From a virus, in IMG/VR virus record IMGVR_UViG_3300045988_105328, positions 1 to 41,884 of that record: DNA of 41,884 nucleotides; one strand, 5' to 3'. The notes beneath the pieces were generated by a model. It did no database searches and was not told where the DNA came from. It saw only the letters and a list, made by a program, of their open reading frames with translations. Made by a program: the position numbers and the translations under genes. Positions 6,138 through 37,483 of this stretch are shown piece after piece (within the stretch, counting starts at the first letter, position 1; each line of letters opens with the position of its first letter).

Positions 6138-7499
6138 ATGAATGACCTTATTATAGACTGCTTCGCCGGAGGCGGAGGGGCAAGTGTAGGAATAGAGATG
6201 GCGCTGGGACGCCCAGTAGATATAGCGATTAACCACGATCAAGACGCAATTTTGATGCATAAAACCAATCATCCTAACACGCTGCATCTGACGGAGGACA
6301 TCTTCCAGGTGGATTTGAAGAAGTATGTCAAATGTCAGCATGTGGCGCTGATGTGGGCGTCGCCGGACTGCACCAGTCACAGCAAAGCGAAAGGAGGGAA
6401 GCCGCGGGAAAGAGGGCTCAGAATCCTACCGTGGGCGGTGTACAAACATGCGAAGGCTATCTTACCGGATGTAATCCTGATGGAGAATGTGGAAGAAATA
6501 CAACAGTGGGGGCCGCTTGACAGCAATGGTCATCCGATCAAAGAACGTCGTGGAGAGGATTACCAGAAGTTCATAACAGCAATGAAAAGCCTCGGATATA
6601 TATTTGACAGCCAGGAACTTGTGGCGGCGGACTACGGAGCACCAACAACGCGAAAACGCTGGTATGCGATATTCCGCCGCGATGGACGGGAGATCGTCTG
6701 GCCGGTACAGACACATTTTAAGGATCGGGAGCCGAGATGGAAATCCTGTGGAGATTACATAGATTGGTCTGATTTTGGGAAATCCATATTTGGACGAAAA
6801 AAACCACTGGCGGACGCAACTATGAAGCGGATCGCGAACGGAATCAGGAAATACATCATTGATAATCCAGATCCGTATATCGTGAGAAATAGAGAGGCGG
6901 TTGCATTCCTGATCCAGTATCACGGAGAAACGAAGGCAGGAGATTCCCGGGGACAGTTCCTGACAGATCCGATCAAGACGATAGATACCAGTAACCGGTA
7001 CGGGCTTGTGACCGCGTTCGTGACGAAGTTCTACAAGAGTAGCATCGGGCAGGGATGCGACGAACCGCTGCATACAATAACAACCTCGCCGGGACACTTT
7101 GGATTGATATCCGCATTCCTGATCAAGTATTACGAATCGGGCAGCGGACAAGAGCTGATGAAGCCACTTGCAACGATTACTACAAAGGACCGTTTTGAAC
7201 TGGTTAATATGGTGATTGATATTGGCGGCGGAAAATATATTCTGAGAGACGTTTTTCTGAGGATGCTGAAGTCGGAAGAGTTAAAACTGATGCAGGGATT
7301 TCCAAAGGATTACATCATAGAGCGGGATTACCGTTGGAAGCCATATCCAATCGCAAAGCAGGTGGCACGAATCGGGAACAGCGTGGTGCCGATTATGGCG
7401 CAGAAACTTGTTGAAGCGAACTGTCCGTATCTGAAAGTCGGTGAACGGTCACCAAGTTTGAGAATTGACCAAAGCGGTGAGCAATTAAAATTTGCATAA
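6138..7499 (+). CDS. DNA (cytosine-5) methyltransferase
   Basis: Motif I DCFAGGGGAS, catalytic SPDCTSHS (PC-type motif IV), motif VI LMENVEE, QGFPKDY, and motif X RIGNSVVP. Confidence 0.9.
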   Translation: MNDLIIDCFAGGGGASVGIEMALGRPVDIAINHDQDAILMHKTNHPNTLHLTEDIFQVDLKKYVKCQHVALMWASPDCTSHSKAKGGKPRERGLRILPWAVYKHAKAILPDVILMENVEEIQQWGPLDSNGHPIKERRGEDYQKFITAMKSLGYIFDSQELVAADYGAPTTRKRWYAIFRRDGREIVWPVQTHFKDREPRWKSCGDYIDWSDFGKSIFGRKKPLADATMKRIANGIRKYIIDNPDPYIVRNREAVAFLIQYHGETKAGDSRGQFLTDPIKTIDTSNRYGLVTAFVTKFYKSSIGQGCDEPLHTITTSPGHFGLISAFLIKYYESGSGQELMKPLATITTKDRFELVNMVIDIGGGKYILRDVFLRMLKSEELKLMQGFPKDYIIERDYRWKPYPIAKQVARIGNSVVPIMAQKLVEANCPYLKVGERSPSLRIDQSGEQLKFA

Positions 7500-7536
7500 T
7501 TAAACTGATTAGGATTTAACGGAGGTGTGAAGGGGA

Positions 7537-7737
7537 ATGAGCGAAATTAAATTAAAGCCGTGTCCTTTCTGCGGAGGGACAGCAACCTTTAAGCGTGACA
7601 GAATCGCAGGCATATACTGCGTAAAATGTACAAATTGCAAATGCATGACGACTTTTCAGTTTGATTTTGGAGAGGGCGAAGAAGTAAGTAAGAAGAAGGC
7701 GGCGGATGTATGGAACAGGAGGGACGGGAATGAGTGA
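7537..7737 (+). CDS. Lar-family restriction-alleviation-like zinc-ribbon protein
   Basis: KPCPFCGG ... CxxC ... AADVWNRR is the Lar-family signature as I remember it. It lies immediately downstream of the methyltransferase. Confidence 0.7.
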   Translation: MSEIKLKPCPFCGGTATFKRDRIAGIYCVKCTNCKCMTTFQFDFGEGEEVSKKKAADVWNRRDGNE

Positions 7738-7993
7738 TGATTTAATCAGCAGAAAATATCTTTTAGAATGTGCAGAATATGACAATAACGGGAGACTGAT
7801 TATTCCGTATAGATATGTTAAAAATGCGCCGACAGCCTTTGACAAGGAAAAGATGATTGAAGAAATTAAAGAAAAATACGGGCAATCTGCACATTGGGAA
7901 ACGATTAATGGGATTTGTGAGATTATTGAAAAAGGCGGGTTAACTGATAGAGGAGGAATGTATCGTGCTTACGGTAGGAGAATGGGTGGATAA
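7730..7993 (+). CDS. Hypothetical early protein
   Basis: ATG at 7730 (MSDDLISRKYLL) overlaps the previous stop. No motif recognised. Confidence 0.5.
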   Translation: MSDDLISRKYLLECAEYDNNGRLIIPYRYVKNAPTAFDKEKMIEEIKEKYGQSAHWETINGICEIIEKGGLTDRGGMYRAYGRRMGG

Positions 7994-8147
7994 GGTTCAT
8001 GAGATTACAGATACACTTGAACATAAAGCTACGGAAAACTGTGATGAATATATCAGAAAGGCGCAGTCATATCGGGATGGATACATCCAAGCGTGTGAAG
8101 ATTTTGGGCGTGAGATGAGGCGTGCCATAAGCCGAGAGCAAGGCTAA
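7965..8147 (+). CDS. Hypothetical early protein
   Basis: 60-codon ORF with a non-ATG start after aggagga. No motif recognised. Confidence 0.4.
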   Translation: MLTVGEWVDKVHEITDTLEHKATENCDEYIRKAQSYRDGYIQACEDFGREMRRAISREQG

Positions 8148-8183
8148 ACTGATATTTACAGAACAAACGAAGGAGGTATAGCT

Positions 8184-8435
8184 GTGAGAAAACATGCAGT
8201 AAAAATAGACCAGCAGGCCCACATGGACGAGCTGGAAAGAAAAGGGCCAGACAAAAAAGCAACAGAGCGTTTCCAACGGCCGGCTTACCAGGCAGCTAGG
8301 CTGATCCAGATCCAGGGAAGACAGATGGAACATAAGTCTGTAGCAGAGTACATGGCAGAGAAGCTTGGAGTAGGGGATGGCGGAGAGAATGATAAATCTT
8401 CTGAAATTTCTGATATTGATATTCTGGATTCTTGA
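8184..8435 (+). CDS. Hypothetical early protein
   Basis: GTG start 8 nt after aaggagg. 83 aa, charged. No motif recognised. Confidence 0.5.
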   Translation: MRKHAVKIDQQAHMDELERKGPDKKATERFQRPAYQAARLIQIQGRQMEHKSVAEYMAEKLGVGDGGENDKSSEISDIDILDS

Positions 8436-8553
8436 TATCACAAATATGCCCTTTATGGAGATGTTCGATACTGCATACCCGATGAATGGTCTATTTTGGT
8501 GGTTGATATGGATTTTTTTTTGGGTTTTAGAATTCAAGTGGAGAGTGATGACG

Positions 8554-9024
8554 ATGGATAATTTTGAAGAGAAGACAATGAATGAGAATGACAAGAAAAA
8601 GGAATACCTGCGGAGTTATCGGCAGCATGTGCGCAGAATCCGCCGGATCAATGCGGAGATAGCTGAGCTGAGATCGATGAAACTGTATCCGGCATTGAAA
8701 CCGGATGATGGGATGCCGCACGGTAGTGGCGGTCAGGGGGATCTGTCCGGGTACGCCGCTGAATTGGACGAGATGATCCAGGAGCTGATCCACGAACGCT
8801 ATCTCAGGATCAAGACATATCAGGCAATTGCACGGCAGATTAAGCACATGAAGAGCCGGAATGAGTCGGACGTTTTGTTCTATCGGTATATAAGTGGGCT
8901 TGGCTGGTGGGAGATTGCGGAAAAGATGGGATATTCACAGAGACATATCACAAGGATTCACGGGAAAGCATTGGCCCATTTTGAACTTCCGAAAGATGTC
9001 CTAGAATGTCCTATTGAATCGTGA
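8554..9024 (+). CDS. Sigma-70 region-4-like HTH protein, probable late-gene activator (DUF1492/ArpU/RinA-type position)
   Basis: The C-terminal sequence FYRYISGLGWWEIAEKMGYSQRHITRIHGKAL looks like a sigma r4 HTH. It is the last conserved gene before terS. ATG 8554 follows ggagag by 8 nt; the start is uncertain because the ORF is open from 8377. Confidence 0.6.
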   Translation: MDNFEEKTMNENDKKKEYLRSYRQHVRRIRRINAEIAELRSMKLYPALKPDDGMPHGSGGQGDLSGYAAELDEMIQELIHERYLRIKTYQAIARQIKHMKSRNESDVLFYRYISGLGWWEIAEKMGYSQRHITRIHGKALAHFELPKDVLECPIES

Positions 9025-9040
9025 TAATATGGTATCATCA

Positions 9041-9120
9041 AGAAGAGGAAATAAAAAACCTCTTCTCCACGAGCCAGATGGCTCGAAGAAAAGTGGATGA
9101 CAGATGGTTTCTCACTTTTC
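9041..9120 (+). other. Three consecutive perfect hairpins without U-tracts
   Basis: agaagagg/cctcttct (9041-9066), cgagcc/ggctcg (9070-9085) and gaaaagtg/cacttttc (9088-9120). Confidence 0.6.
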
Positions 9121-9144
9121 CCTCTCAACCTTACATAAAACCTG

Positions 9145-9181
9145 AAAAGAGCGCCCTATAAAAATATGGGGTGTTCTTTTT
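9145..9181 (+). terminator. Rho-independent terminator closing the early/middle operon
   Basis: 12-bp stem aaaagagcgccc / gggtgttctttt (two G-U pairs), 12-nt loop, and a T-run. Confidence 0.7.
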
Positions 9182-9264
9182 GTGCAAAATGCGAATTGAA
9201 AAAACAGAACAAATGTTCTATAGTAATTATTACCTTAAAACACAGAAAAAATGTGGGGTATTTG

Positions 9265-9293
9265 TTGATAATTGTCAGAAATTGGTATATTAT
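9265..9293 (+). promoter_or_regulatory. Sigma-70-like promoter of the AT-rich cassette
   Basis: TTGATA (9265-9270), a 17-nt spacer, then TATTAT (9288-9293), about 48 nt upstream of ATG 9341. Confidence 0.5.
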
Positions 9294-9340
9294 TGTGGCA
9301 GGTTTTCAATGTAAGGTTATTGTGTTTTGGGAGGGTATGT

Positions 9341-10279
9341 ATGAAAAAGTCGTTTGTTGCAAATTTTAATTTAGTATTTTATGGAGATGATGAAGAACCG
9401 CTGTTAACGTACTTTGATTCCATTTTAATGCCAGCATTGACTTCTGGCATTAAAAGAAAAACGGGAGATGCAAAGTATTTTTTGATGGATATTGGTGTAG
9501 AAGAAGTAGAAGATGGTGAGTATGTTTTAAAGGGATTGATTATTAAACAGACAGTGTTAGAAGTTAAATCAGATCTTGATGAAAATGGAAAGTTGATAGA
9601 AAAAGACGAGAAGTATCCCACCGCACCATTTTCTATGTTTGTAATATATTTAAAAAATCATAGGATGTTATATGTACAGAACCAAAAGGGTAGCCCTTCA
9701 CTTGAGAATTTTAAAGCAACCATCAAATATATTTTAAATACATATGTTAATAAAAAAATGCAGGAAGAGAAGAAAGAATTGCCAATTCCTATTTTAAATG
9801 TAGTTGGTATCCCCATGCACAAGATGTTGAAACAAGCGTTAGAGGAAGTAGAAAAGATAAATCGGTTATGTTTACGATTCTATCCATTAAATGGAGATCT
9901 TGATTATAGCGGTCTATTTGGCGAAATTTCTAAAGATATTAGGAAAGTTGCTAACTGCAAAAATGCTGATTTAATCTTAAAATCTCCTAAAAATATTGAT
10001 GGAGTAATAAACATTATAGAAAAATCTGGAGGAACAGTTAAACCGATTTTCAATGTTACCTATAAAGATAAGAAAACCGGGAAGAAAAGAACGGGAAAAA
10101 TAAAAGATGATCAAATTTCAGAAAGCATGGATATTGATGTGTCCGGAGAAACATTAGAGGAGGAAATGAAAAATATTATAAAGGAAGGAAAAACTCGTTC
10201 TAGTATAACATATACAAGTAAAGATAACGAAGCTATATATGAAAAGAATAAACATAAGATCATAAAATTTTTTAATTGA
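9341..10279 (+). CDS. Unknown soluble 312-aa protein (cassette gene A)
   Basis: ATG 9341 after gggaggg. No hydrophobic segments, and the C-terminal third is K/E-rich. I recognise no catalytic or NTP-binding motif. The coding sequence is strongly AT-rich. Confidence 0.75.
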   Translation: MKKSFVANFNLVFYGDDEEPLLTYFDSILMPALTSGIKRKTGDAKYFLMDIGVEEVEDGEYVLKGLIIKQTVLEVKSDLDENGKLIEKDEKYPTAPFSMFVIYLKNHRMLYVQNQKGSPSLENFKATIKYILNTYVNKKMQEEKKELPIPILNVVGIPMHKMLKQALEEVEKINRLCLRFYPLNGDLDYSGLFGEISKDIRKVANCKNADLILKSPKNIDGVINIIEKSGGTVKPIFNVTYKDKKTGKKRTGKIKDDQISESMDIDVSGETLEEEMKNIIKEGKTRSSITYTSKDNEAIYEKNKHKIIKFFN

Positions 10280-10300
10280 TAGTTTAAGGAGGTGTGTCGA

Positions 10301-10939
10301 ATGAAACAAATTAAAACAAAATTATTAGAGAATATGTTTCATCCAGTAACCTCTAGACAAATTATTAAACAAGCCTTAAAAATGTATGTACCTACGGGAA
10401 AATATAAAAAAAGATTCATTTTTGCAAACATTGTATGTATTATTCCAACAGTAATGATGGGAATATCCATTGATACGTACACACTTTTTCTGTCGGGATG
10501 TGAAAAAATAAATAATACAGTTATTGCAATATTTGGAATTGTTTTTACTGGATATGCCTTGTTCCAAGCACTCATAAATAATGAGTTATTGATTCGGATG
10601 GTCAATGACGATTCTAATAATGAATCAGGGAAGAATAAATTGCAGGAAACAAATGAAACTTTTACGGAACTGATGATGTTGTGTGTTATTTCTATTATGG
10701 TTAACATTTTTTTGGGGTTATTAATTGCTAGCCTTTCGTCAGATTTTGTAATATTTGATAAAAAAGAATGTAACGATATTATTGCTATAGTTCTTTTGCA
10801 AATATATTTTGTATTTCATGCAAATATTCTTTTAGAACTTAAAAGTTTTATTTTTAATACTTTTCAGTTATTTAATTTGCACGCAGGGACTAAGATAATA
10901 GAAATAATAGAAGATTCTAAAAAAAAGAGTGAAGAATGA
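10301..10939 (+). CDS. Unknown 212-aa integral membrane protein with about 4 TM segments (cassette gene B)
   Basis: ATG 10301 lies 8 nt after aggagg. Hydrophobic stretches are FIFANIVCIIPTVMMGISI, TVIAIFGIVFTGYALFQALI, LMMLCVISIMVNIFLGLLIASL and IIAIVLLQIYFVFHANILL. Confidence 0.75.
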   Translation: MKQIKTKLLENMFHPVTSRQIIKQALKMYVPTGKYKKRFIFANIVCIIPTVMMGISIDTYTLFLSGCEKINNTVIAIFGIVFTGYALFQALINNELLIRMVNDDSNNESGKNKLQETNETFTELMMLCVISIMVNIFLGLLIASLSSDFVIFDKKECNDIIAIVLLQIYFVFHANILLELKSFIFNTFQLFNLHAGTKIIEIIEDSKKKSEE

Positions 10940-10944
10940 CTTAT

Positions 10945-10970
10945 AAAAGGCACCCTCCGGGGTGCTTTTC
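10945..10970 (+). terminator. Rho-independent terminator closing the cassette
   Basis: gcaccc-tccg-gggtgc stem, extended by flanking A/T pairs and followed by ttttc. Confidence 0.65.
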
Positions 10971-11002
10971 TAATGCAATAAGCCCAGAATGAAGGTGGTG
11001 AA

Positions 11003-11731
11003 GTGAGTGAAACACAGAACTATATTTTAGCCGAAAAAGATTACATGGCTGGAATGAAATATAAGGACATCGCTGCAAAGTATGGAGTGACTTTGAACAC
11101 AGTGAAATCCTGGAAAGTCCGCTATGGATGGAATAAAAAAAGTGTGCACACAAAATCAGAAAAAGTGTGCACACAAAAAAAGAAGCACGGAGGCCAGCCT
11201 GGAAATAAAAATGCTGTTGGGCATGGTGCTCCAAAAGGGAACCAGAACGCTGTGAAGCACGGGCTTTTCTCTCGATATCTTCCAGAAGATACTCAGGAGC
11301 TTTTCTTTTCTTTGGATTTTTCAGATCCGCTGGAATTATTGTGGGATCAGATTAAGCTGGCTTATGCGGCCATCCTACGAGCGCAGTCAGTTATGTATGT
11401 AACTGGAAAAGAAGACAAAACAGTTGAGAAAATTGAGGAGAAGAGAGGAAAAATTATTGGAGAACGGTGGGAAATCCAACAGGCGTGGGATAAGCAGGCT
11501 ACGTTTCTGCAAGCTCAGGCCAGGGCCCAAGCAGAATTACGGTCTCTGATTAAGCAATATGATGAAATGCTACACAAGAACTGGAAATTGGCGACAAAAG
11601 AGCAGAAAGCCAGAATTGCACAGTTAAAGGCCCAAACACAGAAAATCACGGGAGAGGGGCTTGAAGTAGAAGATATGTCGGAAATCGAGGCGGAGATCTA
11701 TGAAGCAGATCAGAAAAAAGAAAACGCTTAA
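11003..11731 (+). CDS. terS: Terminase small subunit
   Basis: N-terminal HTH (YKDIAAKYGVTLNTVKSWKVRYGW) and repeated GxPxGNxNAVxHG motifs, both typical of Firmicutes phage TerS. It lies directly upstream of terL. Confidence 0.8.
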   Translation: MSETQNYILAEKDYMAGMKYKDIAAKYGVTLNTVKSWKVRYGWNKKSVHTKSEKVCTQKKKHGGQPGNKNAVGHGAPKGNQNAVKHGLFSRYLPEDTQELFFSLDFSDPLELLWDQIKLAYAAILRAQSVMYVTGKEDKTVEKIEEKRGKIIGERWEIQQAWDKQATFLQAQARAQAELRSLIKQYDEMLHKNWKLATKEQKARIAQLKAQTQKITGEGLEVEDMSEIEAEIYEADQKKENA

Positions 11732-13070
11732 TTATGTGTTTTCTGAAAAGCATAAAGATTATATCCGGGCCTGTCGTGATTGCGAATTCAATGTGGCGGA
11801 AGGAGCTGTCCGGGCTGGGAAGACGGTAGACAATGTTTTTGCATTTGCTCAAGAATTGAAAACGACACCTGACAGAATCCACCTTGCGACAGGATCCACA
11901 GTTGGAAATGCCAAGCTAAACATTGGTGTCTGTAATGGACTTGGTCTGGAGAATATATTCAGGGGACAATGCCACTGGGGGAAATTTAAGGATAATGAGG
12001 CTCTGTTTGTGAGAGGGCCTGATACCGGATGGCGACAGAGGATTATCATATTTGCGGGCGGGGCAAAAGAAGACAGCTATAAACGTATCCGAGGAAACTC
12101 TTATGGTATGTGGATCGCTACTGAAATAAGCCTCCATCATGATAAAACGATCAAGGAGGCCAATAATCGTCTGCTGGCGGCGCGGCGATTAAAGATATTT
12201 TGGGACCTAAATCCTGATAACCCGAAACATCCAATATACACAGATTACATAGACAAGTACAGGGATATGGCCGCCGCGGGCAACTTCCCTGGGGGCTACA
12301 ACTATATGCACTGTACGATCTATGATAATAAAACTATCACTGCTGAGCGCCTGAAGCGGATAGAGAGCAGATATGACAAAAACAGTATCTGGTATATGCG
12401 GGATATCAAGGGTATGCGTGTTGTGGCGAGTGGCCTTATCTACCGTAGATTTGCGGATGACGTTAGCGCCCAGCAATATACATTCCGTCTGGTGGATAAG
12501 CCCAAAGATATCATGGAGATTATCCTTGGGATAGACTTTGGCGGATCTGCTTCCGGCCATTCTTTTTCTGCAACCGCCATTACCAGAGGATACAGATTTG
12601 TTGTTGCTCTAGCGTCTGAGCTGATTCCTTGTAAGGACAGGAGCGGTAATCAGATAGAGATTGATCCAGAGCTATTAGGTAGCATGTTTTGTGATTTTGT
12701 ACAGCGGATATTAAGCGTATATGGTTTTGTCACAGCCGTATATGCGGATTCTGCAGAGCAGACGTTGATCGCTGGAATCCGCAGCAGCCTCAGAAAGCAT
12801 GGCCTTGGATGGATCAGAGTGGAAAATGCGCTCAAGACGGAGATCAATGACCGGATAAACGCGCTTGCTATCTTAATGGCGCAGAGAAGATTTTTCTATG
12901 TGGAAAATCAATGCAACAGTCTGGAAACAGCGCTGTGCACGGCTGTATGGGATCCAGATGAGATTACGAAAAATGTCAGGTTGGATGATGGAACGAGCGA
13001 TATAGACAGCCTGGACAGTTTTGAGTATACATTTGAGCGGCGGATCAGCCAGCTCATCAAATATGGATAG
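11700..13070 (+). CDS. terL: Terminase large subunit
   Basis: 456 aa with the Walker A-like motif EGAVRAGKT and a C-terminal nuclease-like block (LGIDFGGSASGHS). It lies between terS and the portal gene. Confidence 0.85.
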   Translation: MKQIRKKKTLNYVFSEKHKDYIRACRDCEFNVAEGAVRAGKTVDNVFAFAQELKTTPDRIHLATGSTVGNAKLNIGVCNGLGLENIFRGQCHWGKFKDNEALFVRGPDTGWRQRIIIFAGGAKEDSYKRIRGNSYGMWIATEISLHHDKTIKEANNRLLAARRLKIFWDLNPDNPKHPIYTDYIDKYRDMAAAGNFPGGYNYMHCTIYDNKTITAERLKRIESRYDKNSIWYMRDIKGMRVVASGLIYRRFADDVSAQQYTFRLVDKPKDIMEIILGIDFGGSASGHSFSATAITRGYRFVVALASELIPCKDRSGNQIEIDPELLGSMFCDFVQRILSVYGFVTAVYADSAEQTLIAGIRSSLRKHGLGWIRVENALKTEINDRINALAILMAQRRFFYVENQCNSLETALCTAVWDPDEITKNVRLDDGTSDIDSLDSFEYTFERRISQLIKYG

Positions 13071-21837: not shown

Positions 21838-24800
21838 ATGGCAAGCGACGGAACAATAAAAATCACTACAGAACTTGATAATCAAAAAGCAGAGCAGGCC
21901 CTATCAAAGTTTGGGAGCATTGTAAAAAAGGGCGTTGCCGCTATCGGAATCGCTAAAATCACCTCTGAAGTGGCGCAATTGGGAGCTTATGTTGCCCAGA
22001 CCGGGATCCAGTTTGAATCCGCCTTTGCTGGTGTTCAGAAGACGGTAGACGCTACCGATGAAGAATTGGCTGGCTTCCGGGAAGGAATCCGGGATATGGC
22101 GAAGGATATCCCACAGACAGCCTCCGAGATTGCTGGAGTTGCGGAAGCGGCTGGACAATTAGGTATTAAAAATGAAAATCTCTTGGATTTTACCCGGACC
22201 ATGTCTGATCTGGGTGTGGCCACGAATATGTCTGCGACAGAAGCAGCGACATCCCTTGCGAGGCTTGCAAATATCACGCAAATGCCGCAGGAAAATTTTG
22301 GCCGCCTTGGGTCTACGATCGTTGCTCTTGGTAATAACCTGGCGACAACAGAATCCGAGATTACAGAGATGGGCCTGCGCCTTGCAGGAGCCGGAAAACA
22401 GGTCGGAATGACAGAAGATCAGATCCTGGGCCTGGCCGGAGCGATCTCTTCCGTCGGAATTGAGGCGGACGCTGGAGGATCTGCGGTGTCTACGGTCATG
22501 ACAAAAATGCAGTTGGCCGTAGAAGAGGGCGGAGAATCCCTGGAGCAGTTTGCAAACGTGGCAGGCATGTCGGCGGAGGAATTCCAGCAGGCGTTCCGGC
22601 AAGACGCCGCTCAGGCTCTTGTGGCGTTCGTGGAAGGTCTTGGGACAATGGAATCCAGAGGGCAGAGTGCGATTGCCACATTGTCCGATATGGAGATCAC
22701 GGAGATCCGCCAGAGGGACGCTCTTTTGCGTCTGGCGGGGGCCGGAGATACGCTGTCTGAAGCTCTGGGGATTGCCTCTCAAGCATGGGACGAAAATAAT
22801 GCCCTTACCAATGAGGCAGAACAGAGATATCAGACACTGGAAAGCCAGATTCAGATCCTGAAGAACAATGTGGACGATTTTGCGATCAGCCTCTATGATG
22901 GAATCCGAGACCCTATGGCTGAGGCGGTCACGGAATCTATTGGCTACGTACAGCGCCTGCATGACGCATTTAACACAGGCGGGGTCACTGCGGTGGCGTC
23001 TGAAATGGGCGCAGTTTTTAATGATGTGGCTGACGATATCGCAGGGACCAGCCAGGCAGCCGCTGGACTGGTGACTCCGCTGAAAGATGTGGCGAACGTA
23101 GGCGGGAATCTGGCCAAGGCAGTTCTTCCAGTGCTGGGAGATGGGGCGAAGTTTACGGCTGAGAATTTTGACGCGATTCTCCCGGTATTAACGGGAGTGG
23201 TCGCAGGATATAAGCTGTACAATACCATAGGCCAGAAGACGGCCACTGTACTCAAAGCCAGTGCCGCAGCGACAGCGGCGTTGAATAAAATGGAAAAAGC
23301 CAACGCCCTGCTACTGGTAGCGCAAGAAGGTGGGTTGACCACAAGGCAGACGCTCCTGGCTTTATATAATAAACAGATCCCCATTACAACAGCGGCAACG
23401 GGATTATGGACCAAAGCTCAGACTGCCCTCAACACTGCCATGAATGCCAACCCAATCGGAGTGGCAGTGGCAGGGGCAACAGCCTTGATTGCAGTTGGGA
23501 CGGCGATCAAAAGCGTTGTGACCCGTGAGACGGAGGCAGAGCGGGAACACTCCCAGGCGCTGAAGGAATCCGCTGAGGCAGCTACCGAGAATCGGAAAGC
23601 GGCTGAGGAAAGAAAACAGGCTTATGAGGAACTGGTAGAATCCCAAAACACCCAGGCGGCGGGAGATGTCGCACAGCTTGATCGATTGAAAGGCTTAAAC
23701 GATGAGCTAAATTCGATCGTGGACGCAAATGGCCGGGTAAAGGAAGGGGAAGAGGATAGAGCCGCTTTCATTACCTCCCAGTTATCCAGTGCCCTTGGTG
23801 TGGAAATCTCCATGACCGATGGCGTGATCAGTAATTACCAGGAGCTCCAGGGAGAGATCCAAAGCCTGATCCAGCAGAAACGGGTCGAGGCTGTCATGTC
23901 TGCACAGCAGGCCAAGTATGAGGAGGCTGTGGCGAACCAGATGCAGGTGGCGGCGGAAGCCTCCGCGAATCTGACGGCCATGAAGCAGGCTGAGAACGAT
24001 GTGAAGCGGGAAAGCGCAGAACTGTCTCAGTTAGAGGAAGAATATAATCAGGCGGTACTTGACGGGAATAAAAAACAAGTTAGTGTCTTGGGCGAAAAGA
24101 TTAAGCGCCAGGAAGAAGACGTTGAGAAAGCCAAAGAAGCCTACGAAGAAAATAAGAAGGCTTACGAAGGAAATACGGAACTGTTGGCGCAGTATTCCAA
24201 TGATATCGACATGTACACCGCTCTCGCGGAAGCGGCGGCTACAGGGAACGCAGAAGCGATCGAGGCGGCGATCAGCCAGATAACGGCTGGTATTAAAACG
24301 GCCAGCAATGCCACCAGCGAAGAGCTTCAGCAACAGGTAGTCAATGTCTCCAACATGGAGAACCTGATCCGTCAGGAAGTGGAAAAGGGAACACCTGGAT
24401 TTACCCAGGCCATGTTAACCCAGGCGCAAGATGCCACGACGGCCGCATTGGAAGAATTTGCGAAGGCCGCTCCTCAGACGGCCGCGGAGTTGGCGAAAGT
24501 CCCTCCAGAGGCAGTAGCCGCATTGGTGGCCGGTGATATGCGAGGCCAGCTTTCCGCCGAGGCCAGTGGGGCCGTGGATGGAATGCTGGAGCAGTTTGAT
24601 GGACTGGACGCGGAGACGCAAGAAGCGTTTGCGCAGGCGATCTACGGCGCCCTGGAAGGCCTGGAGGGATTCGAGGATCTGAAAGACCCCGCAGAAGAAG
24701 GGGTGGAAGCGTTTCTTGAAACTCTCAGAACCGCATTGGACGAGCACTCTCCATCCAAAAAGACGGAAGAAATCTTCCGGCTTGCGATGGAAGGAGCCGC

Positions 24801-32474: not shown

Positions 32475-32639
32475 CTAACAGAGTGTAGATAACTCAAACA
32501 CTTCTTTTACGGTTACCGTTTTAGGTGCGGCGAGCCTGAGAGCATTCTGGGCAAACACCTTTTTACTTTTAATCTGTCCTAAGTGCGGATATGCTTCAAC
32601 GTATTTTCTTCTGATTTCCTGGTATCTGTTTTCTTTCAT
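32475..32639 (-). CDS. Small ORF (54 aa), first gene of the leftward recombinase operon
   Basis: ATG 32639 lies 8 nt after ggagg (MKENRYQEIRRKYVEAYPHLGQ...). Confidence 0.5.
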   Translation of the reverse strand: MKENRYQEIRRKYVEAYPHLGQIKSKKVFAQNALRLAAPKTVTVKEVFELSTLC

Positions 32640-32769
32640 TTCGTTTTCCTCCGTTCCTTTGATGATTATATGATACACCTAAAATAATGTATTTTCAATT
32701 AGCAAATACACCGAAAATAAAGCAACAAAATATAGGGCTAATTGTGCATTATTTATAATGTAAATAATC

Positions 32770-32798
32770 TTGAAAATGATTTATTAATAATGTATAAT
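32770..32798 (+). promoter_or_regulatory. Near-consensus sigma-70 promoter for the 72-aa HTH gene
   Basis: TTGAAA (32770-32775), a 17-nt spacer, then TATAAT (32793-32798). Confidence 0.65.
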
Positions 32799-32825
32799 AG
32801 TAAATAATAGAATGGAGGTATTGGA

Positions 32826-33044
32826 ATGTTTGTCTATAAATTTGACGTGCTGGAAGCACTTAAAGAAAGTGGATATAATACGACAAAGTTGCGTAAAGAT
32901 AAGTTGTTGGGAGAAAATGCGATCCAATCTTTACGCCGTGGAGAAATGGTCGGGATTATTGCGCTTGAAAAGATTTGCAGATTATTAGATATGCAACCCG
33001 GAAACATTATAAAATATGTAGAAAACGATGATGAAAAACATTAA
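32826..33044 (+). CDS. Small Cro/C1-type HTH regulator
   Basis: 72 aa. TTKLRKDKLLGENAIQSLRRGEMVGIIALEKICRLLDMQPGNI fits short XRE/HTH_26-like regulators. RBS ggagg. Confidence 0.7.
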   Translation: MFVYKFDVLEALKESGYNTTKLRKDKLLGENAIQSLRRGEMVGIIALEKICRLLDMQPGNIIKYVENDDEKH

Positions 33045-33062
33045 AAATAATGTAAAAATCTA

Positions 33063-33091
33063 TTGACAATACACTGAAAATAATGTAATAT
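33063..33091 (+). promoter_or_regulatory. Sigma-70-like promoter with an operator repeat in its spacer
   Basis: TTGACA (33063-33068), a 17-nt spacer, then TAATAT (33086-33091). The spacer contains ACACTGAAAATAATG. Confidence 0.55.
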
Positions 33092-33146
33092 ATAATTGTC
33101 CAAAGGGAACAGAGGACAATAACCCGGAAGGGAGAAAGGAGAAAAA

Positions 33147-33290
33147 ATGGAAGCTATGAACATGAGCGAGACGGCGAGACTGATAATCGGGCTCCGGGCG
33201 GCCGGATGGGACGAAAAATCAATTAACGATTTTATTCTCTACATCGAGACCGGAGAAGATCAGTACAAGCCAAAAGAAAAGGCTGACTAA
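33147..33290 (+). CDS. Small ORF (47 aa)
   Basis: ATG 33147 after ggagaaaggag (MEAMNMSETARLIIGLRAAGWDEKSINDFILYIETGEDQYKPKEKAD). It is followed by a hairpin at 33314-33334. Confidence 0.5.
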   Translation: MEAMNMSETARLIIGLRAAGWDEKSINDFILYIETGEDQYKPKEKAD

Positions 33291-33313
33291 ACAGCCAGCC
33301 AAAACACACAAAA

Positions 33314-33334
33314 GGGGCGGACGATAACCGCCCC
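33314..33334. terminator. GC-rich hairpin (ggggcgg / ccgcccc)
   Basis: Perfect 7-bp stem with a 7-nt loop. The T-rich tract lies on the minus-strand side (cttttgtgtgtttt), so it may terminate int transcripts as well as the small + ORF. Confidence 0.5.
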
Positions 33335-33557
33335 GCATAAAAATAATACCATAAAAGCGATAATAAATCAAACAGGGGTTGAATCCTCTGTTTTTTGGAT
33401 TAAATTAAATCTATATCCTCTGGGTCTGCCAAAAGTCCTTGTAATTGTCATTTAATATAGAAGAAACTACTTTATCCGTTCTGACAAAAAGGTCAACCTT
33501 TCTGCTATAACGTATAAAGTGCCTAAAAGCCCCATAAATAGAGGGGTTCAGGCACTT

Positions 33558-35039
33558 TTAGCAATAGTAAAAATAATAGATTTTTAGCGTATCCGTTTCT
33601 CGGTCATATATGATCCGGTCAATAATCTGTTTCAGGGATTCGTTTTTCTGAGCGTCAGTATAGGAGGCAGATATTAAAATATCATAGACGCCGCGGACCC
33701 GGTCAAGCATATCAGATGAGCTGGGGCAAGCATGATCACTTTGGATCGCCTCTAAATCCTCAAGTTGTTTTTGGAGTGATTCCCGCTCTTTTTGGATCAG
33801 ACGCTTGTTCTCCCGGTATTCTTCCAGAGTATCGATTCCTTCTCGGTAGGAGGCTTTGATTCGCTGCTCCTTGGAGGCGAGTCCTTCCAGCCGGTCAGTG
33901 AGCAGGGCTTTTTCATTCACGATCTCCACAGGCTGATAGTTGCGTAACTCAAATTCCATATCCCCGGAGGCCAGGACTTTTTCGAGGCTGGCCAGAACTT
34001 CTCGCTCAATGATCCTGGAGCTGACGCCATGCGGTTTCTTGCATTTCCCTTTGTTATAGCCATAGCATTTAAAGTAGGCATAGGGCTCTCCATTGCGCCG
34101 GTGCAGGGTGGTTGCAGTCATTGTACGGCCGCAGGCAGGGCATTTTAGCAGCCCGGAAAGCCAGTGCCGATAAGTGGAAGAGGGGCGGGAGCCTGCGGGC
34201 CTGTAGGTAGATTTATAGACCTCTTGGGCGGCCTCAAATAGTTCCTTGGAGATGATTGGCTGCTGTGCCCCTTCCGTGATGATCCATTCATTTTCATCTT
34301 TTTGTTTCTTTGTAGTATTGTCCGTTTGATTCCATCGGATCATGCCGCAGTAGGTTGGATTTTGAATTATGTATTCAATGCTGCGGCGCTCAAATGGTTT
34401 CCCGTGTGACGTCTTTAATCCTAGAGAATTTAGATAGCGTGCTATGTCAAAAAAGCTCATCCTTTCATTGACATATTTCTGGAATATAGTCTGTACGATC
34501 TGGGCTTCTTCTGGGACGATCACAGGCGGTTCCCCATGTCGGTCAATGCGGTAGCCGAGAGGAGGTCTTGCCTGGTAACCACCTCTGAGCGCCTTTTCCG
34601 TCATTCCTCTGGTAACTTCACCGGAGAGGCGGATAGAGTAGTATTCATCCATCCACTCTATGATTCGTTCGATCAAGGAGCCAAAGGGACCATCTATTAG
34701 GGGCTCAGAGACAGAGATAACGTCCACATTGCTCTGCTTCTTTAAGAGGGACTTGTAGACAATGCTTTCCTCCTGATTCCGGGCGAACCTACTGAACTTC
34801 CATACTAGGATCACGTCTACAGGGTGATCTTTGGACTTGGCAGAAGCAATCATCTTCTGGAACTCTGGCCGTTTGTCTGCCTTCCGCCCAGATATCCCGA
34901 TTTCTTGATAAATGGAAAGAAGGACGATATGATTTTTCTTAGCATACTCCCGGAGCAACTTTTCTTGGGAATCTGGTGATAGTTCCTCCTGCTTATCTGT
35001 GGATACGCGGACGTATCCGTAGCCATATCGTTGCTTCAT
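33558..35039 (-). CDS. int: Large serine recombinase (phage integrase)
   Basis: ATG 35039 after aaggag. YGYVRVSTDKQE and VWKFSRFARN are present, along with a recombinase domain, a zinc ribbon (CPACGRTM...CYGYNKGKC) and a C-terminal coiled coil. 493 aa. Confidence 0.92.
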   Translation of the reverse strand: MKQRYGYGYVRVSTDKQEELSPDSQEKLLREYAKKNHIVLLSIYQEIGISGRKADKRPEFQKMIASAKSKDHPVDVILVWKFSRFARNQEESIVYKSLLKKQSNVDVISVSEPLIDGPFGSLIERIIEWMDEYYSIRLSGEVTRGMTEKALRGGYQARPPLGYRIDRHGEPPVIVPEEAQIVQTIFQKYVNERMSFFDIARYLNSLGLKTSHGKPFERRSIEYIIQNPTYCGMIRWNQTDNTTKKQKDENEWIITEGAQQPIISKELFEAAQEVYKSTYRPAGSRPSSTYRHWLSGLLKCPACGRTMTATTLHRRNGEPYAYFKCYGYNKGKCKKPHGVSSRIIEREVLASLEKVLASGDMEFELRNYQPVEIVNEKALLTDRLEGLASKEQRIKASYREGIDTLEEYRENKRLIQKERESLQKQLEDLEAIQSDHACPSSSDMLDRVRGVYDILISASYTDAQKNESLKQIIDRIIYDRETDTLKIYYFYYC

Positions 35040-35276
35040 GGTATCATCTCCTTGTGTATGATATGTAAAAAAGAGTATAAAAATAACAGCCAGAGAGTGT
35101 TTCTCTTGCGTGGCTGACCAGGAGATGATACAATATTTTTGGTCGAGCTGTAACATCTCCGGAGGTGTTATAGTAAAAACTCCCGACTGTATGTCTGCTG
35201 TGCGGACAGGGAGTAGTTTTGCCGTCCTGGTGTTGGCGCACCGGGGCGGTTTTGTATATAGATAGAAACATCTAGT

Positions 35277-35657
35277 TTAATCTAATTCTAGTGTTTCCGC
35301 CAAGTCTTCCATAACCTCTTCTACTCCGTAGGTCTCTCCTTCATCCATTGTTTTCAGTTTTGCTAGGGCAAGATTGACATCGAGTGCAATAGATCCATCG
35401 GTAATATAGTCAAGGCTTGTGTCATTTTTTTCATGATCTTCTTCTATTTTTTCTAAATCATCGTAAATTCTGGAAAGTTCTTCTTCCAGAGTATCAGCGT
35501 TCATAGATCCATTGCAGAAATCTTCCATACACTCATAGGCTTCCACACCTAAATCATAAGCCTCTTGTGTCGTGAAATCCGGTAAACTATCCCCGCAAGC
35601 ACATAACCCGGCTGATAAAATACAAATCATCAAAATCGCCACAATTCTTTTTCTCAT
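35277..35657 (-). CDS. Secreted acidic lipoprotein (candidate superinfection-exclusion moron)
   Basis: Signal peptide MRKRIVAILMICILSAGLCAC with a lipobox-like L-C-A-C. Strong RBS gaggaggg. It lies between int and immA. Confidence 0.7.
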   Translation of the reverse strand: MRKRIVAILMICILSAGLCACGDSLPDFTTQEAYDLGVEAYECMEDFCNGSMNADTLEEELSRIYDDLEKIEEDHEKNDTSLDYITDGSIALDVNLALAKLKTMDEGETYGVEEVMEDLAETLELD

Positions 35658-35710
35658 AGGTATTTTCCCTCCTCATTCGTACCTTAACATTGAGAATCTA
35701 TATAATCCGC

Positions 35711-35893
35711 CTAGGCGGTTATATCATTTTTCGTACGTTTCAAACGATATATATCCTCCAGACACACCATTAGAAATTCCTCGGATAGATATACTTCATC
35801 CCTAAAACCCTCTGGAATTACGTTAATTCCCATCTCTCTAGTAATTGTATAATATAGATTCAGCGCTGTTTCGTTCTCAAAAATATATTTCAT
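35711..35893 (-). CDS. Hypothetical 60-aa protein
   Basis: ORF between the ImmA and lipoprotein genes. No motif recognised. Confidence 0.4.
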   Translation of the reverse strand: MKYIFENETALNLYYTITREMGINVIPEGFRDEVYLSEEFLMVCLEDIYRLKRTKNDITA

Positions 35894-35914
35894 AATTCTT
35901 ACTCACTTAGATAT

Positions 35915-36631: not shown

Positions 36632-36647
36632 ACAGATCAGTCCTCTA

Positions 36648-36971: not shown

Positions 36972-37037
36972 TAGGTCCACCTCTCCTTCTATATGCATTT
37001 ATTATATACGAAAATGGATACTTTGTAAATATAAAAT

Positions 37038-37137: not shown

Positions 37138-37166
37138 ATGAAATTTGTAAAGGAGGTAGATAAAGC

Positions 37167-37370: not shown

Positions 37371-37483
37371 ACCAAACATTTGTTCGATAAAATTACTATA
37401 GCATTTCTACTATATGAAATCAATTAGTAATTATCACCAAAGAACAACTTACTTATTTGTAACTGACGAGGAGGTGAGGTAGG

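What the first reader, a model, noticed from the sequence alone, without database searches (positions are those of the whole stretch)
9143..10970. AT-rich, promoter- and terminator-insulated two-gene cassette (unknown soluble protein plus 4-TM protein) between the late activator and terS: candidate novel prophage defence/exclusion system
Seen in the sequence:
- The cassette is compositionally foreign. Sampled 60-nt lines give 19/60 G+C (10681-10740) and 9/60 (10801-10860), against 35/60 in the tape measure gene (22381-22440).
- It is bracketed by a strong terminator (9145-9181) and another terminator (10945-10970).
- It has its own TTGATA-17-TATTAT promoter (9265-9293) and good Shine-Dalgarno sites.
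- It interrupts an otherwise contiguous late-activator to terS junction.
- Gene A (9341-10279, 312 aa) is soluble. I could match it to no nuclease, NTPase, protease or structural motif.
- Gene B (10301-10939, 212 aa) has four clear hydrophobic helices.

Inference: this is a horizontally acquired moron that can be expressed from the prophage independently of the late operon. A cytosolic partner paired with a small multi-pass membrane partner is the outline of several membrane-anchored anti-phage systems. One example is Kiwa, where KwaA is a 4-TM protein and KwaB a ~310-aa DUF4868 protein. Here the gene order is reversed, and I cannot assert homology by eye.
Basis: partly seen in the sequence, partly recalled or inferred. 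Interest (0 to 1): 0.82.

Follow-up and report, generated by a model that had tools for sequence, protein, structure and literature searches.

The report
Rex-like prophage exclusion gene pair
A self-contained, AT-rich two-gene insert in a gut-bacterium prophage encodes a cytoplasmic protein with the fold of phage lambda's RexA plus a four-helix membrane protein; it is most likely a very distant relative of the RexAB exclusion system, and the family is widespread in Bacillota prophages.

Summary
Positions 9144-10970 form a 30% G+C island in a 47% G+C prophage. Two real hairpin terminators bracket it, and it carries a soluble 312-aa protein (A) and a 4-TM 212-aa protein (B).

Pfam, PADLOC, PHROGs and NCBIfam find nothing for either protein. 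The AlphaFold model of A (pLDDT 89) has only three PDB matches at E<=1e-3: two chains of lambda RexA and one of E. coli RdgC. The B model's third-best viral match is Sbash gp31, a validated RexB-like protein, but that match is not significant.

- A and B are adjacent in 75 of 77 loci.
- The same cassette, with its own promoters and terminators, sits in unrelated phage backbones.
- It is absent from 51 of 54 close terL relatives. Their equivalent slot holds other cargo, including TIR, SLATT and HD-domain genes.
- A proteobacterial family member lies as cI-A-B-int in P2-like prophages, like lambda cI-rexA-rexB, and PGAP names it DUF4747.
- About half of the cassettes, this one included, carry a Gram-positive LexA box inside the promoter.

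Verdict: a divergent Rex-like (DUF4747/CarolAnn-type) system, not Kiwa. Function is inferred, not tested.

The parts
8377..9024 (+). Flank, not part of the cassette: phage transcription regulator (sigma-70 region-4-like, phrog_36). It is the commonest upstream neighbour of the cassette.
   Evidence: PHROGs phrog_36 E 2.7e-25 and Pfam Sigma70_r4 E 1.4e-4. The upstream neighbour is phrog_36 in 24 of 55 loci. PDB sequence hits are to sigma factor region 4.
9144..9181 (+). Upstream intrinsic terminator: a 17-bp hairpin followed by a U-tract. It marks the left edge of the cassette.
   Evidence: RNA fold -22.6 kcal/mol, z = -6.3. Hairpins and a terminator travel with the cassette in other backbones.
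9196..9224 (+). Promoter-like site P1 (TTGAAA-17-TATAGT).
   Evidence: Consensus scan. The same -35 / LexA box / -10 arrangement recurs in 29 of 61 distinct upstream regions.
9207..9218 (.). Gram-positive LexA (Cheo) box GAACAAATGTTC, lying in the P1 spacer and abutting the -10 hexamer.
   Evidence: It is the only GAAC-N4-GTTC site in the 41.9-kb window. It is found in 29 of 61 cassette upstream regions, against 0.009 expected per 330 nt, plus 3 regions with one mismatch. The consensus is given in PMC4234289.
9265..9293 (+). Promoter-like site P2 (TTGATA-17-TATTAT; TGgTATATT read as an extended -10). It is probably the basal promoter.
   Evidence: Consensus scan. An extended -10 element about 35-50 nt upstream of the A start is visible in most cassette loci, including those without a LexA box.
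9341..10279 (+). Gene A: a 312-aa soluble protein with a RexA/RdgC-like two-domain fold. Predicted role: cytoplasmic DNA-binding sensor.
   Evidence: AF2 pLDDT 88.8, pTM 0.86. Foldseek PDB: lambda RexA 8twq E 6e-7, RdgC 2owl E 2.9e-5, nothing else at E<=1e-3. The family has 662 clusters at 50% identity.
10301..10939 (+). Gene B: a 212-aa membrane protein with four TM helices, N- and C-termini predicted cytoplasmic. Predicted role: membrane effector, RexB-like in architecture.
   Evidence: Hydropathy. AF2 pLDDT 87 with four long helices. A B-family gene lies immediately downstream of A in 75 of 77 loci. Rank-3 BFVD match is Sbash gp31, E 0.22.
10946..10969 (+). Downstream intrinsic terminator: a 10-bp GC hairpin that is also terminator-like on the minus strand. 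It marks the right edge of the cassette.
   Evidence: -16.3 kcal/mol, z = -3.4. The scan found it on the minus strand. Homology between backbones ends right after the equivalent terminator.
11003..11731 (+). Flank, not part of the cassette: terminase small subunit. It starts 33 nt after the cassette terminator.
   Evidence: phrog_509 E 1.3e-84.

Best explanation
The cassette is a divergent RexAB-type (DUF4747/CarolAnn-type) two-component prophage exclusion or abortive-infection system, carried as a mobile moron in the cargo slot between the phage regulator and terS.

**Proposed mechanism**
- The cassette's own promoters give basal expression in the lysogen (P2). They also give SOS-inducible expression, because the host LexA box occludes P1.
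- B sits in the membrane as a latent four-helix pore or channel subunit.
- A is a cytoplasmic, probably dimeric, RdgC/RexA-fold DNA clamp. It senses an infection cue such as foreign DNA or a DNA-protein intermediate.
- A then activates B. Membrane integrity or potential is lost, growth stops, and the superinfecting phage fails.

**Shown here:** gene structure, composition, terminators, the fold of A, the topology of B, strict A-B synteny, mobility between backbones, the hotspot context, the conserved LexA box, and the cI-A-B-int arrangement of a proteobacterial family member.

**Inferred:** expression in the lysogen, DNA binding, A-B signalling, membrane damage and protection.
For: 1. **Fold of A.** The confident AF2 model has only three PDB matches at E<=1e-3: RexA chains 8twq_B (6e-7) and 8twq_A (1.8e-5), and RdgC 2owl_A (2.9e-5). 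Its secondary-structure order matches the published RexA architecture: an N-terminal beta-rich domain (1-143), a central strand-and-four-helix domain (149-265), then C-terminal helices.
2. **B partner.** B is a 4-TM protein encoded immediately downstream on the same strand in 75 of 77 loci. This is the defining Rex-like layout.
3. **B fold hint.** The third-best match of the B model among BFVD viral structures is the only 165-aa protein of phage Sbash, which is gp31, an experimentally validated RexB-like protein.
4. **Shared C-terminal motif.** The most conserved B motif, FQLFN after TM4, coincides with the conserved C-terminal QL[YF]N of the RexB family.
5. **Proteobacterial family members.** These match the A HMM at 160 bits and the B HMM at 23 bits. 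They lie as CI repressor-A-B-integrase in P2-like Klebsiella and E. coli prophages, like lambda cI-rexA-rexB. PGAP names the A homolog 'DUF4747 family protein'. DUF4747 is the weak HHpred motif shared by RexA, Sbash gp30 and CarolAnn gp44. About 30 of the 120 listed A homologs carry a precomputed faint PF15931 hit.
6. **Moron behaviour and hotspot.**
7. **Regulation.** The LexA box in the promoter parallels the DNA-damage control reported for DUF4747/CarolAnn operons.
Against: - There is no significant sequence similarity of A to the RexA family (hhalign E 0.08-0.5) or to the actinophage RexA-like proteins (E 0.041).
- There is none of B to RexB either, beyond a 9-residue motif (E 0.029).
- Accepted Rex-like proteins fail the same test against RexA (E 0.76), so this test has little power.
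- Global TM-scores to RexA and RdgC are low (0.25-0.28). That is expected if domain orientation differs, but it was not checked domain by domain.
- B has no significant structural match (best E 0.016).
- The faint PF15931 hits could not be reproduced with hmmscan.
- There are no expression or phenotype data.
- The RexA authors themselves question whether exclusion is the primary function.
- In the Butters system the roles of the two partners are reversed.
Confidence: 0.6

Rival explanations
1. The pair mainly serves the prophage's own life cycle. A is an SOS-induced DNA-binding protein that biases the lysogeny-lysis decision or stabilises commitment to induction, as reported for lambda RexA. 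B modulates it. Any exclusion of other phages is a by-product.
For: - A LexA box lies inside the promoter in about half of the cassettes, including this one.
- The cassette sits next to a phage regulator here and next to CI in P2-like phages.
- Lambda RexA acts on the bistable switch independently of RexB, and its authors raise exactly this possibility for homologs.
Against: - The identical cassette works in phage backbones with unrelated regulators and replication modules. That is hard to reconcile with a specific switch partner.
- About half of the cassettes lack the LexA box.
- Most close relatives of this phage do without the pair.
- A is strictly coupled to a membrane partner.
Confidence: 0.15
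2. It is a membrane toxin plus regulator that acts as an addiction module, or as a superinfection-exclusion device that blocks DNA entry at the membrane. In this reading there is no DNA sensing and no abortive infection.
For: - The pairing of a small multi-pass membrane protein with a soluble partner fits such modules.
- Several loci carry degenerate copies with a truncated A or B, which suggests a fitness cost.
- Two contigs have a B-family gene without a detectable A.
Against: - The fold of A is that of DNA-binding clamps (RexA, RdgC), not of known antitoxins.
- Known Sie proteins are usually single genes.
- A-B coupling is nearly absolute.
Confidence: 0.1
3. A is an RdgC-like recombination or replication modulator used by the phage for its own DNA metabolism. 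B is an unrelated membrane protein that merely shares the operon.
For: - RdgC is the second PDB fold match (E 2.9e-5).
- A BFVD match is annotated 'Recombination-associated protein' (E 4.8e-4).
Against: - RexA scores better than RdgC.
- There is no sequence match to any Pfam family, RdgC included.
- The cassette lies outside the replication module, is insulated by terminators, and is dispensable in relatives.
- Co-inheritance with B is obligate, with -20 to +35 nt between the genes in most loci.
Confidence: 0.08
4. It is a Kiwa-like system, with a KwaA-like 4-TM sensor and a KwaB-like effector in reversed gene order.
For: Only the outline matches: a protein of about 310 aa paired with a 4-TM protein.
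Against: - PADLOC gives no hit for A, B or seven A and two B homologs at E<=1, apart from one spurious Cas10 match.
- No DUF4868 hit appears in Pfam.
- The only PDB fold matches of A at E<=1e-3 are RexA and RdgC.
- The gene order is that of rexA-rexB.
Confidence: 0.02
5. It is an integral part of the packaging or late module, for example a packaging accessory factor.
For: Its position is immediately upstream of terS in most loci.
Against: - It is absent from 51 of 54 contigs with a 75-83% identical terL.
- It is found next to many unrelated terS, terL and portal families.
- It also occurs after endolysin genes and next to CI and integrase.
- Its composition is foreign.
Confidence: 0.02

Closest known systems
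Phage lambda RexA/RexB exclusion system (Pfam PF15969 / PF15968; PDB 8TWQ)
   Same: - The gene order is the same: a soluble protein of about 300 aa, then a 4-TM protein.
- RexA is the top PDB fold match of A, and the two-domain order is co-linear.
- Both systems are prophage-borne.
- A proteobacterial member of the A/B family sits directly after the CI repressor, as rexAB does.
- B and RexB share a conserved QL[FY]N motif after TM4.
   Different: - There is no significant sequence similarity.
- B is 212 aa against 144 aa, with a basic N-terminal cytoplasmic extension and a long C-terminal helix.
- Here the pair is not in the immunity region. It lies between a regulator and terS, with its own promoters, terminators and a LexA box.
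- The host phylum is Bacillota. The RexA family proper comprises only 36 clusters; those named by a source are Enterobacterales apart from one partial sequence labelled Mycobacterium tuberculosis.
Actinobacteriophage Rex-like systems: Sbash gp30/gp31 and CarolAnn gp44/gp43 (the 'DUF4747/CarolAnn prophage system')
   Same: - The architecture is the same: a soluble protein plus a 4-TM protein. Both are prophage-expressed defence systems, and Sbash uses its own promoter.
- Sbash gp31 is the rank-3 structural match of B.
- There is a DUF4747 link, through the PGAP naming of the enterobacterial family member and faint PF15931 hits.
- DNA-damage-responsive regulation has been reported for this type.
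- hhalign pairs the ANFN motif of A with PANFNG of gp30, but the score is not significant.
   Different: - There is no significant sequence similarity (E 0.041 for A, 0.4 for B).
- Their A partners are longer (about 370 aa).
- Their triggers are specific phage proteins. Nothing is known here.
Pseudomonas putida RexABpp (PP_5643/PP_5644)
   Same: It was identified in the same way: BLAST was uninformative, the fold is RexA-like, and the partner is a 4-TM protein with no detectable homology to RexB. It was shown to bind DNA and to cause RexB-dependent membrane damage.
   Different: HHpred linked PP_5643 to RexA at 98% probability, whereas gene A shows no such sequence link with the tools available here. 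The sequences could not be compared directly because they were not in any accessible collection.
E. coli RdgC (PDB 2OWL), recombination-associated DNA-binding ring
   Same: It is the second-best PDB fold match of A (E 2.9e-5). It has the same superfold as RexA.
   Different: RdgC is a chromosomal housekeeping protein with no membrane partner, and it has a two-helix tip domain. There is no sequence match.
Kiwa (KwaA/KwaB)
   Same: Only the pairing of a 4-TM protein with a soluble protein of about 310 aa.
   Different: There is no profile match and no fold match, and the gene order is opposite.
Mycobacteriophage Butters gp30/gp31
   Same: A soluble protein with a weak DUF4747 match plus a 4-TM partner, in a prophage variable region.
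   Different: In Butters the soluble protein is the effector and the membrane protein restrains it. Which polarity applies here is unknown.

Membership tests
RexAB-type two-component exclusion systems | The cytoplasmic partner has the RexA/RdgC two-domain fold: a split globular domain with an inserted dimerisation domain. | tested here: met
   AF2 pLDDT 88.8. Foldseek PDB gives RexA at E 6e-7 (prob 1.0) and RdgC at 2.9e-5, with nothing else at E<=1e-3. The domain order is co-linear with the published description. Caveat: global TM is 0.25-0.28, and no per-domain superposition was possible.
RexAB-type two-component exclusion systems | A small membrane partner with four TM helices is encoded immediately downstream on the same strand. 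| tested here: met
   Four hydrophobic segments and four long helices. A B-family gene follows A in 75 of 77 loci, usually -20 to +35 nt away.
RexAB-type two-component exclusion systems | The system is carried by a temperate phage and expressed from the prophage. | tested here: inconclusive
   The element is temperate: it has a large serine recombinase at 33558-35156 and the loci are prophage loci. The cassette has its own conserved promoters. There are no transcript data.
RexAB-type two-component exclusion systems | The soluble partner dimerises and binds DNA non-specifically. | not testable with these tools
   This needs SEC-MALS and EMSA, or at least an AF-multimer or AF3 dimer:DNA model.
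RexAB-type two-component exclusion systems | Both genes together protect against phages through membrane damage or depolarisation caused by the membrane partner. | not testable with these tools
   This needs plaque assays and membrane-potential or permeability assays.
Pfam RexA (PF15969) / RexB (PF15968) | A significant sequence or profile match. | tested here: not met
   hmmscan finds the two models in lambda (E 1e-97 and 8.5e-92) but not in A or B at E<=1, nor in A-family homologs at E<=10. hhalign A versus RexA gives E 0.08-0.5, and B versus RexB gives E 0.029 over 9 residues. Control: Sbash, CarolAnn and Sejanus proteins versus RexA give E 0.76.
DUF4747 (taken from memory to be Pfam PF15931) / 'CarolAnn' system | A match of the soluble partner to DUF4747. 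| tested here: inconclusive
   No hit for the window protein or for 61 homologs with hmmscan. However, about 30 of 120 homologs carry a precomputed faint PF15931 hit. The enterobacterial family member (160 bits to the A HMM) is named 'DUF4747 family protein' by PGAP in 2 of 11 E. coli genomes.
Kiwa | KwaB (DUF4868) and KwaA profile matches. | tested here: not met
   PADLOC and Pfam give no hits for A, B or their homologs.
RdgC family | A sequence match to RdgC and a chromosomal, stand-alone context. | tested here: not met
   No Pfam, NCBIfam or PDB sequence hit. The context is a mobile prophage cassette with an obligate membrane partner. Only the fold is shared.
LexA (SOS) regulon of Bacillota | A GAAC-N4-GTT(C/T) operator overlapping the promoter. 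| tested here: met
   Window 9207-9218 lies between the -35 and -10 hexamers and is the only such site in the window. It is conserved in 29 of 61 upstream regions, plus 3 with one mismatch, against 0.009 expected. The consensus comes from PMC4234289. LexA binding itself was not tested.

The most novel reading that the evidence does not exclude
The family is not simply 'Rex in Firmicutes'. It would be an SOS-wired DNA-clamp and membrane-effector module whose main job is at prophage induction, for example committing the cell to lysis or protecting the induced cell. It would ride in a cargo slot that late transcription must read through by antitermination. Anti-phage exclusion would then be secondary or absent.
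Probability: 0.15. Interest if true: 0.75.

Novelty: new variant of a known kind. Interest (0 to 1): 0.55.

Why it matters
Rex is the oldest known abortive-infection system, and its trigger and effector mechanism are still unresolved.

- According to a 2026 paper, only five Rex-like systems have been described. All are in Proteobacteria or Actinobacteria.
- This cassette would add a large, sequence-undetectable clade: 662 clusters at 50% identity. Members are mostly in prophages of human-gut Lachnospiraceae, with an outlier branch in P2-like enterobacterial prophages.
- Current profile libraries leave it unannotated, so it is likely uncounted in defence-system censuses that rely on such profiles.
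- The deep alignment, the conserved motifs (NFN, NHRM-x4-NQKGSP and FYPLNGD in A; FTGY-x2-FQA and KSFIFN-x-FQLFN in B) and the E. coli homolog give tractable handles on how a RexA-fold protein talks to its membrane partner.
- The conserved LexA box gives a concrete, testable link between DNA damage and Rex-like immunity.

Tried and rejected
- **Profile libraries.** Pfam, PADLOC, PHROGs and NCBIfam were run on A, B and many homologs. Nothing useful came back.
- **Weak Pfam hits.** TCAD3 matched 24 of 44 members over about 15 residues. DMAP1_like and DUF3915 also appeared. All were judged spurious.
- **PDB sequence search.** A profile of the A family found nothing.
- **hhalign comparisons.** A against lambda RexA (single sequence, a 22-sequence family, and a 40-sequence extended family), B against RexB, and both against the actinophage proteins were all insignificant.
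- **PF15931 hits.** I tried to reproduce the precomputed hits and failed. A literature search for 'PF15931' found nothing, so the equation PF15931 = DUF4747 rests on my memory.
- **Kiwa.** Rejected. A literature search for a KwaB-RdgC link found nothing relevant.
- **Packaging-module reading.** Rejected because the cassette is absent from relatives.
- **Rfam.** No known RNA family lies in or next to the cassette.
- **megablast of 7500-13070 against cultured phage genomes.** No match.
- **Sbash gp30 relatives in IMG/VR.** The scan found only Sbash itself.
- **A wrong accession guess for Sbash** cost one call.
- **Promoter consensus alone.** Not above shuffles.
Full report
**1. The observation**

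The region is as described. G+C is 0.298 over 9143-10970 against 0.474 elsewhere, and GC3 is 0.26 (A) and 0.23 (B) against 0.43-0.55 in neighbouring genes.

Both terminators are real hairpins followed by U-tracts. The first, 9144-9181, folds at -22.6 kcal/mol with z = -6.3. The second, 10946-10969, folds at -16.3 kcal/mol with z = -3.4.

Gene A (9341-10279, 312 aa) and gene B (10301-10939, 212 aa) both have good Shine-Dalgarno sites. A has no hydrophobic segment. B has four, preceded by a very basic N-terminus with 10 K/R in 38 residues. That predicts both termini are cytoplasmic. The AF2 model of B (pLDDT 87) shows four long helices.

The upstream neighbour (8377-9024) is a phrog_36 sigma-region-4-like regulator. 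The downstream neighbour (11003-11731) is a phrog_509 small terminase. The element is temperate, with a large serine recombinase at 33558-35156.

As a bare consensus match, though, it is no better than chance in this AT-rich DNA: 15 sites against 12.2 +/- 4.3 in shuffles.

**2. What the proteins are**

Pfam, PADLOC, PHROGs and NCBIfam recognise neither protein, nor a sample of their homologs. Both nevertheless belong to large families.
- A has 276 clusters at 90% identity, and B has 193.
- The exhaustive profile search found 662 clusters at 50% identity for A.
- Named members come from Dorea, Blautia, Enterocloster, Roseburia, Sporofaciens, Faecalimonas, Oribacterium, Allofournierella, a Clostridium and a Bacillus.

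AlphaFold2 with a 44-sequence alignment gave a confident model of A (pLDDT 88.8, pTM 0.86). Against the PDB, the only matches at E<=1e-3 are lambda RexA (8twq_B at 6e-7, 8twq_A at 1.8e-5, probability 1.0) and E. coli RdgC (2owl_A at 2.9e-5).

The global TM-scores are low (0.25-0.28). The RexA paper explains why this is expected. RexA crystallised in a closed state, whereas AlphaFold and RdgC show an open one, and the two domains swing about a hinge.

The order of elements in the A model matches the published split-globular plus inserted-dimerisation-domain architecture:
- a beta-rich N-terminal domain with two helices (1-143);
- a central domain of strands and four helices (149-265);
- C-terminal helices (272-308).

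Against viral predicted structures, the best matches are five uncharacterised proteins of uncultured, mostly human-metagenome phages (E 1e-7 to 5e-12, TM up to 0.57). One weaker match is annotated as a recombination-associated protein.

The model of B has no significant structural match. Its third-best hit of the whole viral library is the only 165-aa protein of mycobacteriophage Sbash (E 0.22, probability 0.80, TM 0.42). By length that protein is gp31. gp31 is the experimentally validated RexB-like partner of the Sbash gp30/gp31 defence system.

**3. Sequence-level tests of the Rex link**

Profile-profile comparison finds no significant similarity.
- A family against the lambda RexA family: E 0.08-0.5. 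The best alignment is co-linear over 127 columns but not significant.
- A family against Sbash gp30, CarolAnn gp44 and Sejanus gp46: E 0.041. This alignment pairs the invariant ANFN of A with PANFNG of gp30.
- B family against the RexB family: E 0.029.

The B-RexB match is exactly the strongest motif of each family. In B it is KSFIFN-x-FQLFN, just after TM4. In RexB it is the C-terminal [VIL][FIL]Q[LI][YFL]N[LF][ST]. It is suggestive but too short to count.

A control matters here. The accepted actinophage Rex-like proteins score E 0.76 against the RexA family with the same tool. The published links among them are themselves weak HHpred hits to DUF4747. Failing this test therefore lowers the claim 'member of Pfam RexA', not the claim 'RexAB-type'.

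**4. An independent bridge**

tblastn of gene A against cultured phage genomes hit only P2-like Klebsiella phages, at 25% identity and E 2e-10. In phage 4LV2017 the hit is a 349-aa hypothetical protein. An unannotated 201-aa membrane ORF follows it after 1 nt. The A-family HMM scores the first at 160 bits, and the B-family HMM scores the second at 23 bits over its full length.

The arrangement is CI repressor, then A, then B, then integrase. That is the layout of lambda cI-rexA-rexB.

The same pair, 98-99% identical, is in 11 of 5426 complete E. coli genomes. In two of these, PGAP names the A homolog 'DUF4747 family protein'.

DUF4747 is the motif that the Hatfull-lab papers report as shared by RexA, Sbash gp30 and CarolAnn gp44. 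A 2026 paper treats the 'DUF4747/CarolAnn prophage system' as a recognised immune operon.

About 30 of the 120 listed homologs of A carry a precomputed faint PF15931 hit. I could not reproduce these hits with hmmscan. That PF15931 is DUF4747 is from my memory.

**5. Comparative genomics**

*Synteny.* I collected 71 loci with an A homolog from GTDB genomes and IMG/VR, plus 7 from the assembly index, and the window itself. In 75 of the 77 with an intact A call, a B-family gene lies immediately downstream on the same strand, usually -20 to +35 nt away. One exception is a contig end. The other is a locus with only a fragment of A. Five loci hold degenerate copies.

*Composition.* The cassette is 24-34% G+C everywhere, while its flanks range from 24 to 53%.

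*Neighbours.* The large gene downstream is a terminase large subunit or a portal protein of many different PHROG families. The upstream neighbour is a phrog_36 regulator in 24 of 55 loci. In a few loci it is an endolysin, a terminase or an integrase.

*Mobility.* The identical A protein (P0104) sits in at least four backbones with different replication modules and terS types. Aligning those backbones places the left boundary about 265 nt upstream of the A start. The shared stretch includes hairpins, a terminator and two promoters. The right boundary lies directly after the T-tract of the downstream terminator.

*Dispensability.* Of 54 IMG/VR contigs with a terL 75-83% identical to the window's and at least 2 kb upstream of terS, one has A+B, two have a B-family gene alone and 51 have neither.

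*Hotspot.* The same slot in these relatives holds 67 different protein clusters of 120 aa or more within 2.4 kb. These include a CAP12/Pycsar-type TIR, a SLATT_5 2-TM effector, a SocA/Panacea antitoxin, an HD phosphohydrolase, Mom, an SPFH/Band-7 protein, ParA-like ATPases and integrases. The regulator-terS junction is therefore a cargo hotspot rich in defence-type genes. The cassette is one interchangeable occupant.

**6. Regulation**

In the shared upstream region, the first promoter (TTGACA-17-TATACT) has GAAC-N4-GTTC in its spacer, abutting the -10 hexamer. This is the LexA operator of Bacillus and the clostridia.
- It occurs in 29 of 61 distinct upstream regions of the cassette, and in 3 more with one mismatch. 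The expected number is 0.009 per 330 nt.
- It always lies in the same place relative to the -10 hexamer.
- In the window it is GAACAAATGTTC at 9207-9218, inside TTGAAA-17-TATAGT (9196-9224). It is the only such site in 41.9 kb.

A second promoter with an extended -10, about 35-50 nt before the A start, is present in most loci, including those without the LexA box.

The likely pattern is basal expression from P2 and SOS-induced expression from P1. This parallels the DNA-damage control reported for DUF4747/CarolAnn operons.

One thing remains unexplained. terS begins 33 nt after the cassette terminator, here and in other loci. Late transcription must therefore cross the cassette and its terminators. 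The regulator has weak Q-antiterminator-like hits. A conserved hairpin also marks the upstream edge of the cargo slot in many relatives. Together these hint at antitermination, but I did not test it.

**7. Mechanism and rivals**

The best-supported reading (confidence about 0.6) is a RexAB-type system. In it, A is a dimeric DNA-binding clamp that senses infection. A then activates B, a latent membrane pore, which causes loss of membrane integrity and arrest, as shown for lambda, Sbash, CarolAnn and P. putida RexABpp. Only the anatomy, the fold and the context are shown here.

The main rival (about 0.15) is that the pair serves induction or the lysis-lysogeny decision, as lambda RexA can. The LexA box favours this reading. 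Portability between unrelated backbones and dispensability in relatives argue against it.

The remaining readings are weaker or refuted: a toxin, addiction or Sie-type module; an RdgC-like recombination factor; Kiwa; and a packaging accessory.

**8. Novelty**

The kind is known. A 2026 paper counts five described Rex-like systems, none from Bacillota. This cassette is a distant member of that kind.
- No profile library that I could query detects it.
- It has a larger B partner.
- It occupies a different genomic niche.
- It has a conserved SOS operator.

I rate it a new variant of a known kind. The conservative reading would be a new member. It is of moderate interest, mainly because of the family's size in gut prophages and because the E. 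coli homolog makes the old Rex problem more tractable.

Noticed in passing
L001-L006 and L045-L054 (263-506 nt upstream of gene A); L087-L160 (379-3318 nt upstream of terS); absent from the window: A conserved plus-strand hairpin element, about GCCAGG(Y)GTYAYANCCTGG(Y)GGCTGA, occurs at 37 places. It always lies at the upstream edge of the variable cargo slot, both in cassette-bearing phages and in cassette-less terL relatives. It could be a late-promoter or antitermination site. That would explain how terS is transcribed through cargo terminators.
   Followed up: partly
window 10970-11003 (also L002 9650-9720): terS starts only about 33 nt after the cassette terminator, which leaves no room for its own promoter. 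Late transcription must therefore read through the cassette and two terminators. The regulator at 8377-9024 has weak Q-antiterminator-like hits (Pfam E 0.075, phrog_79 E 0.0013).
   Followed up: partly
L087 3448-4128 and L088 1156-1836: A B-family gene (226 aa, HMM E 1.5e-66) lies upstream of terS with no detectable A-family gene. It is an apparent orphan membrane partner.
   Followed up: no
L016, L027, L030, L034, L039: These loci hold degenerate cassette copies. A is truncated to 200 or 212 aa or reduced to a fragment, or B is truncated or split. This suggests turnover or a fitness cost.
   Followed up: no
L207 5025-5630 (Klebsiella phage 4LV2017, NC_047818, between gp02 and the integrase gene): An unannotated 201-aa membrane ORF in the GenBank record is a B-family member. 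It completes a CI-A-B-integrase arrangement. The same pair is in 11 of 5426 complete E. coli genomes.
   Followed up: yes
window gene A residues about 172-186 (DNA about 9854-9898): 24 of 44 A-family members give a weak, short Pfam TCAD3 (PF19972, ternary conflict-system domain) match on the INRLCLRFYPLNGD motif, with best E 0.004. It is probably spurious.
   Followed up: no
L003 7662-7735; L041 upstream of the cassette: tRNA genes sit in the same cargo slot, just upstream of the cassette.
   Followed up: no
L002 and L003 14945-15041; L001 15848-15912: Rfam finds skipping-rope RNA and GP20-b RNA in the head-gene regions of related prophages.
   Followed up: no
window 6138-7499 and 7537-7737: The 453-aa ORF looks like a C5 DNA methyltransferase. 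The 66-aa CPFCGG...WNRR ORF looks like a Lar-type restriction-alleviation protein; L001 has PF14354 at the equivalent place. I judged both by eye and context and did not run them against profiles.
   Followed up: no
window 32500-33500 and 35500-38500: Further low-G+C islands (0.30-0.40) flank the serine recombinase gene (33558-35156, minus strand). They may hold other morons or the lysogeny module.
   Followed up: no
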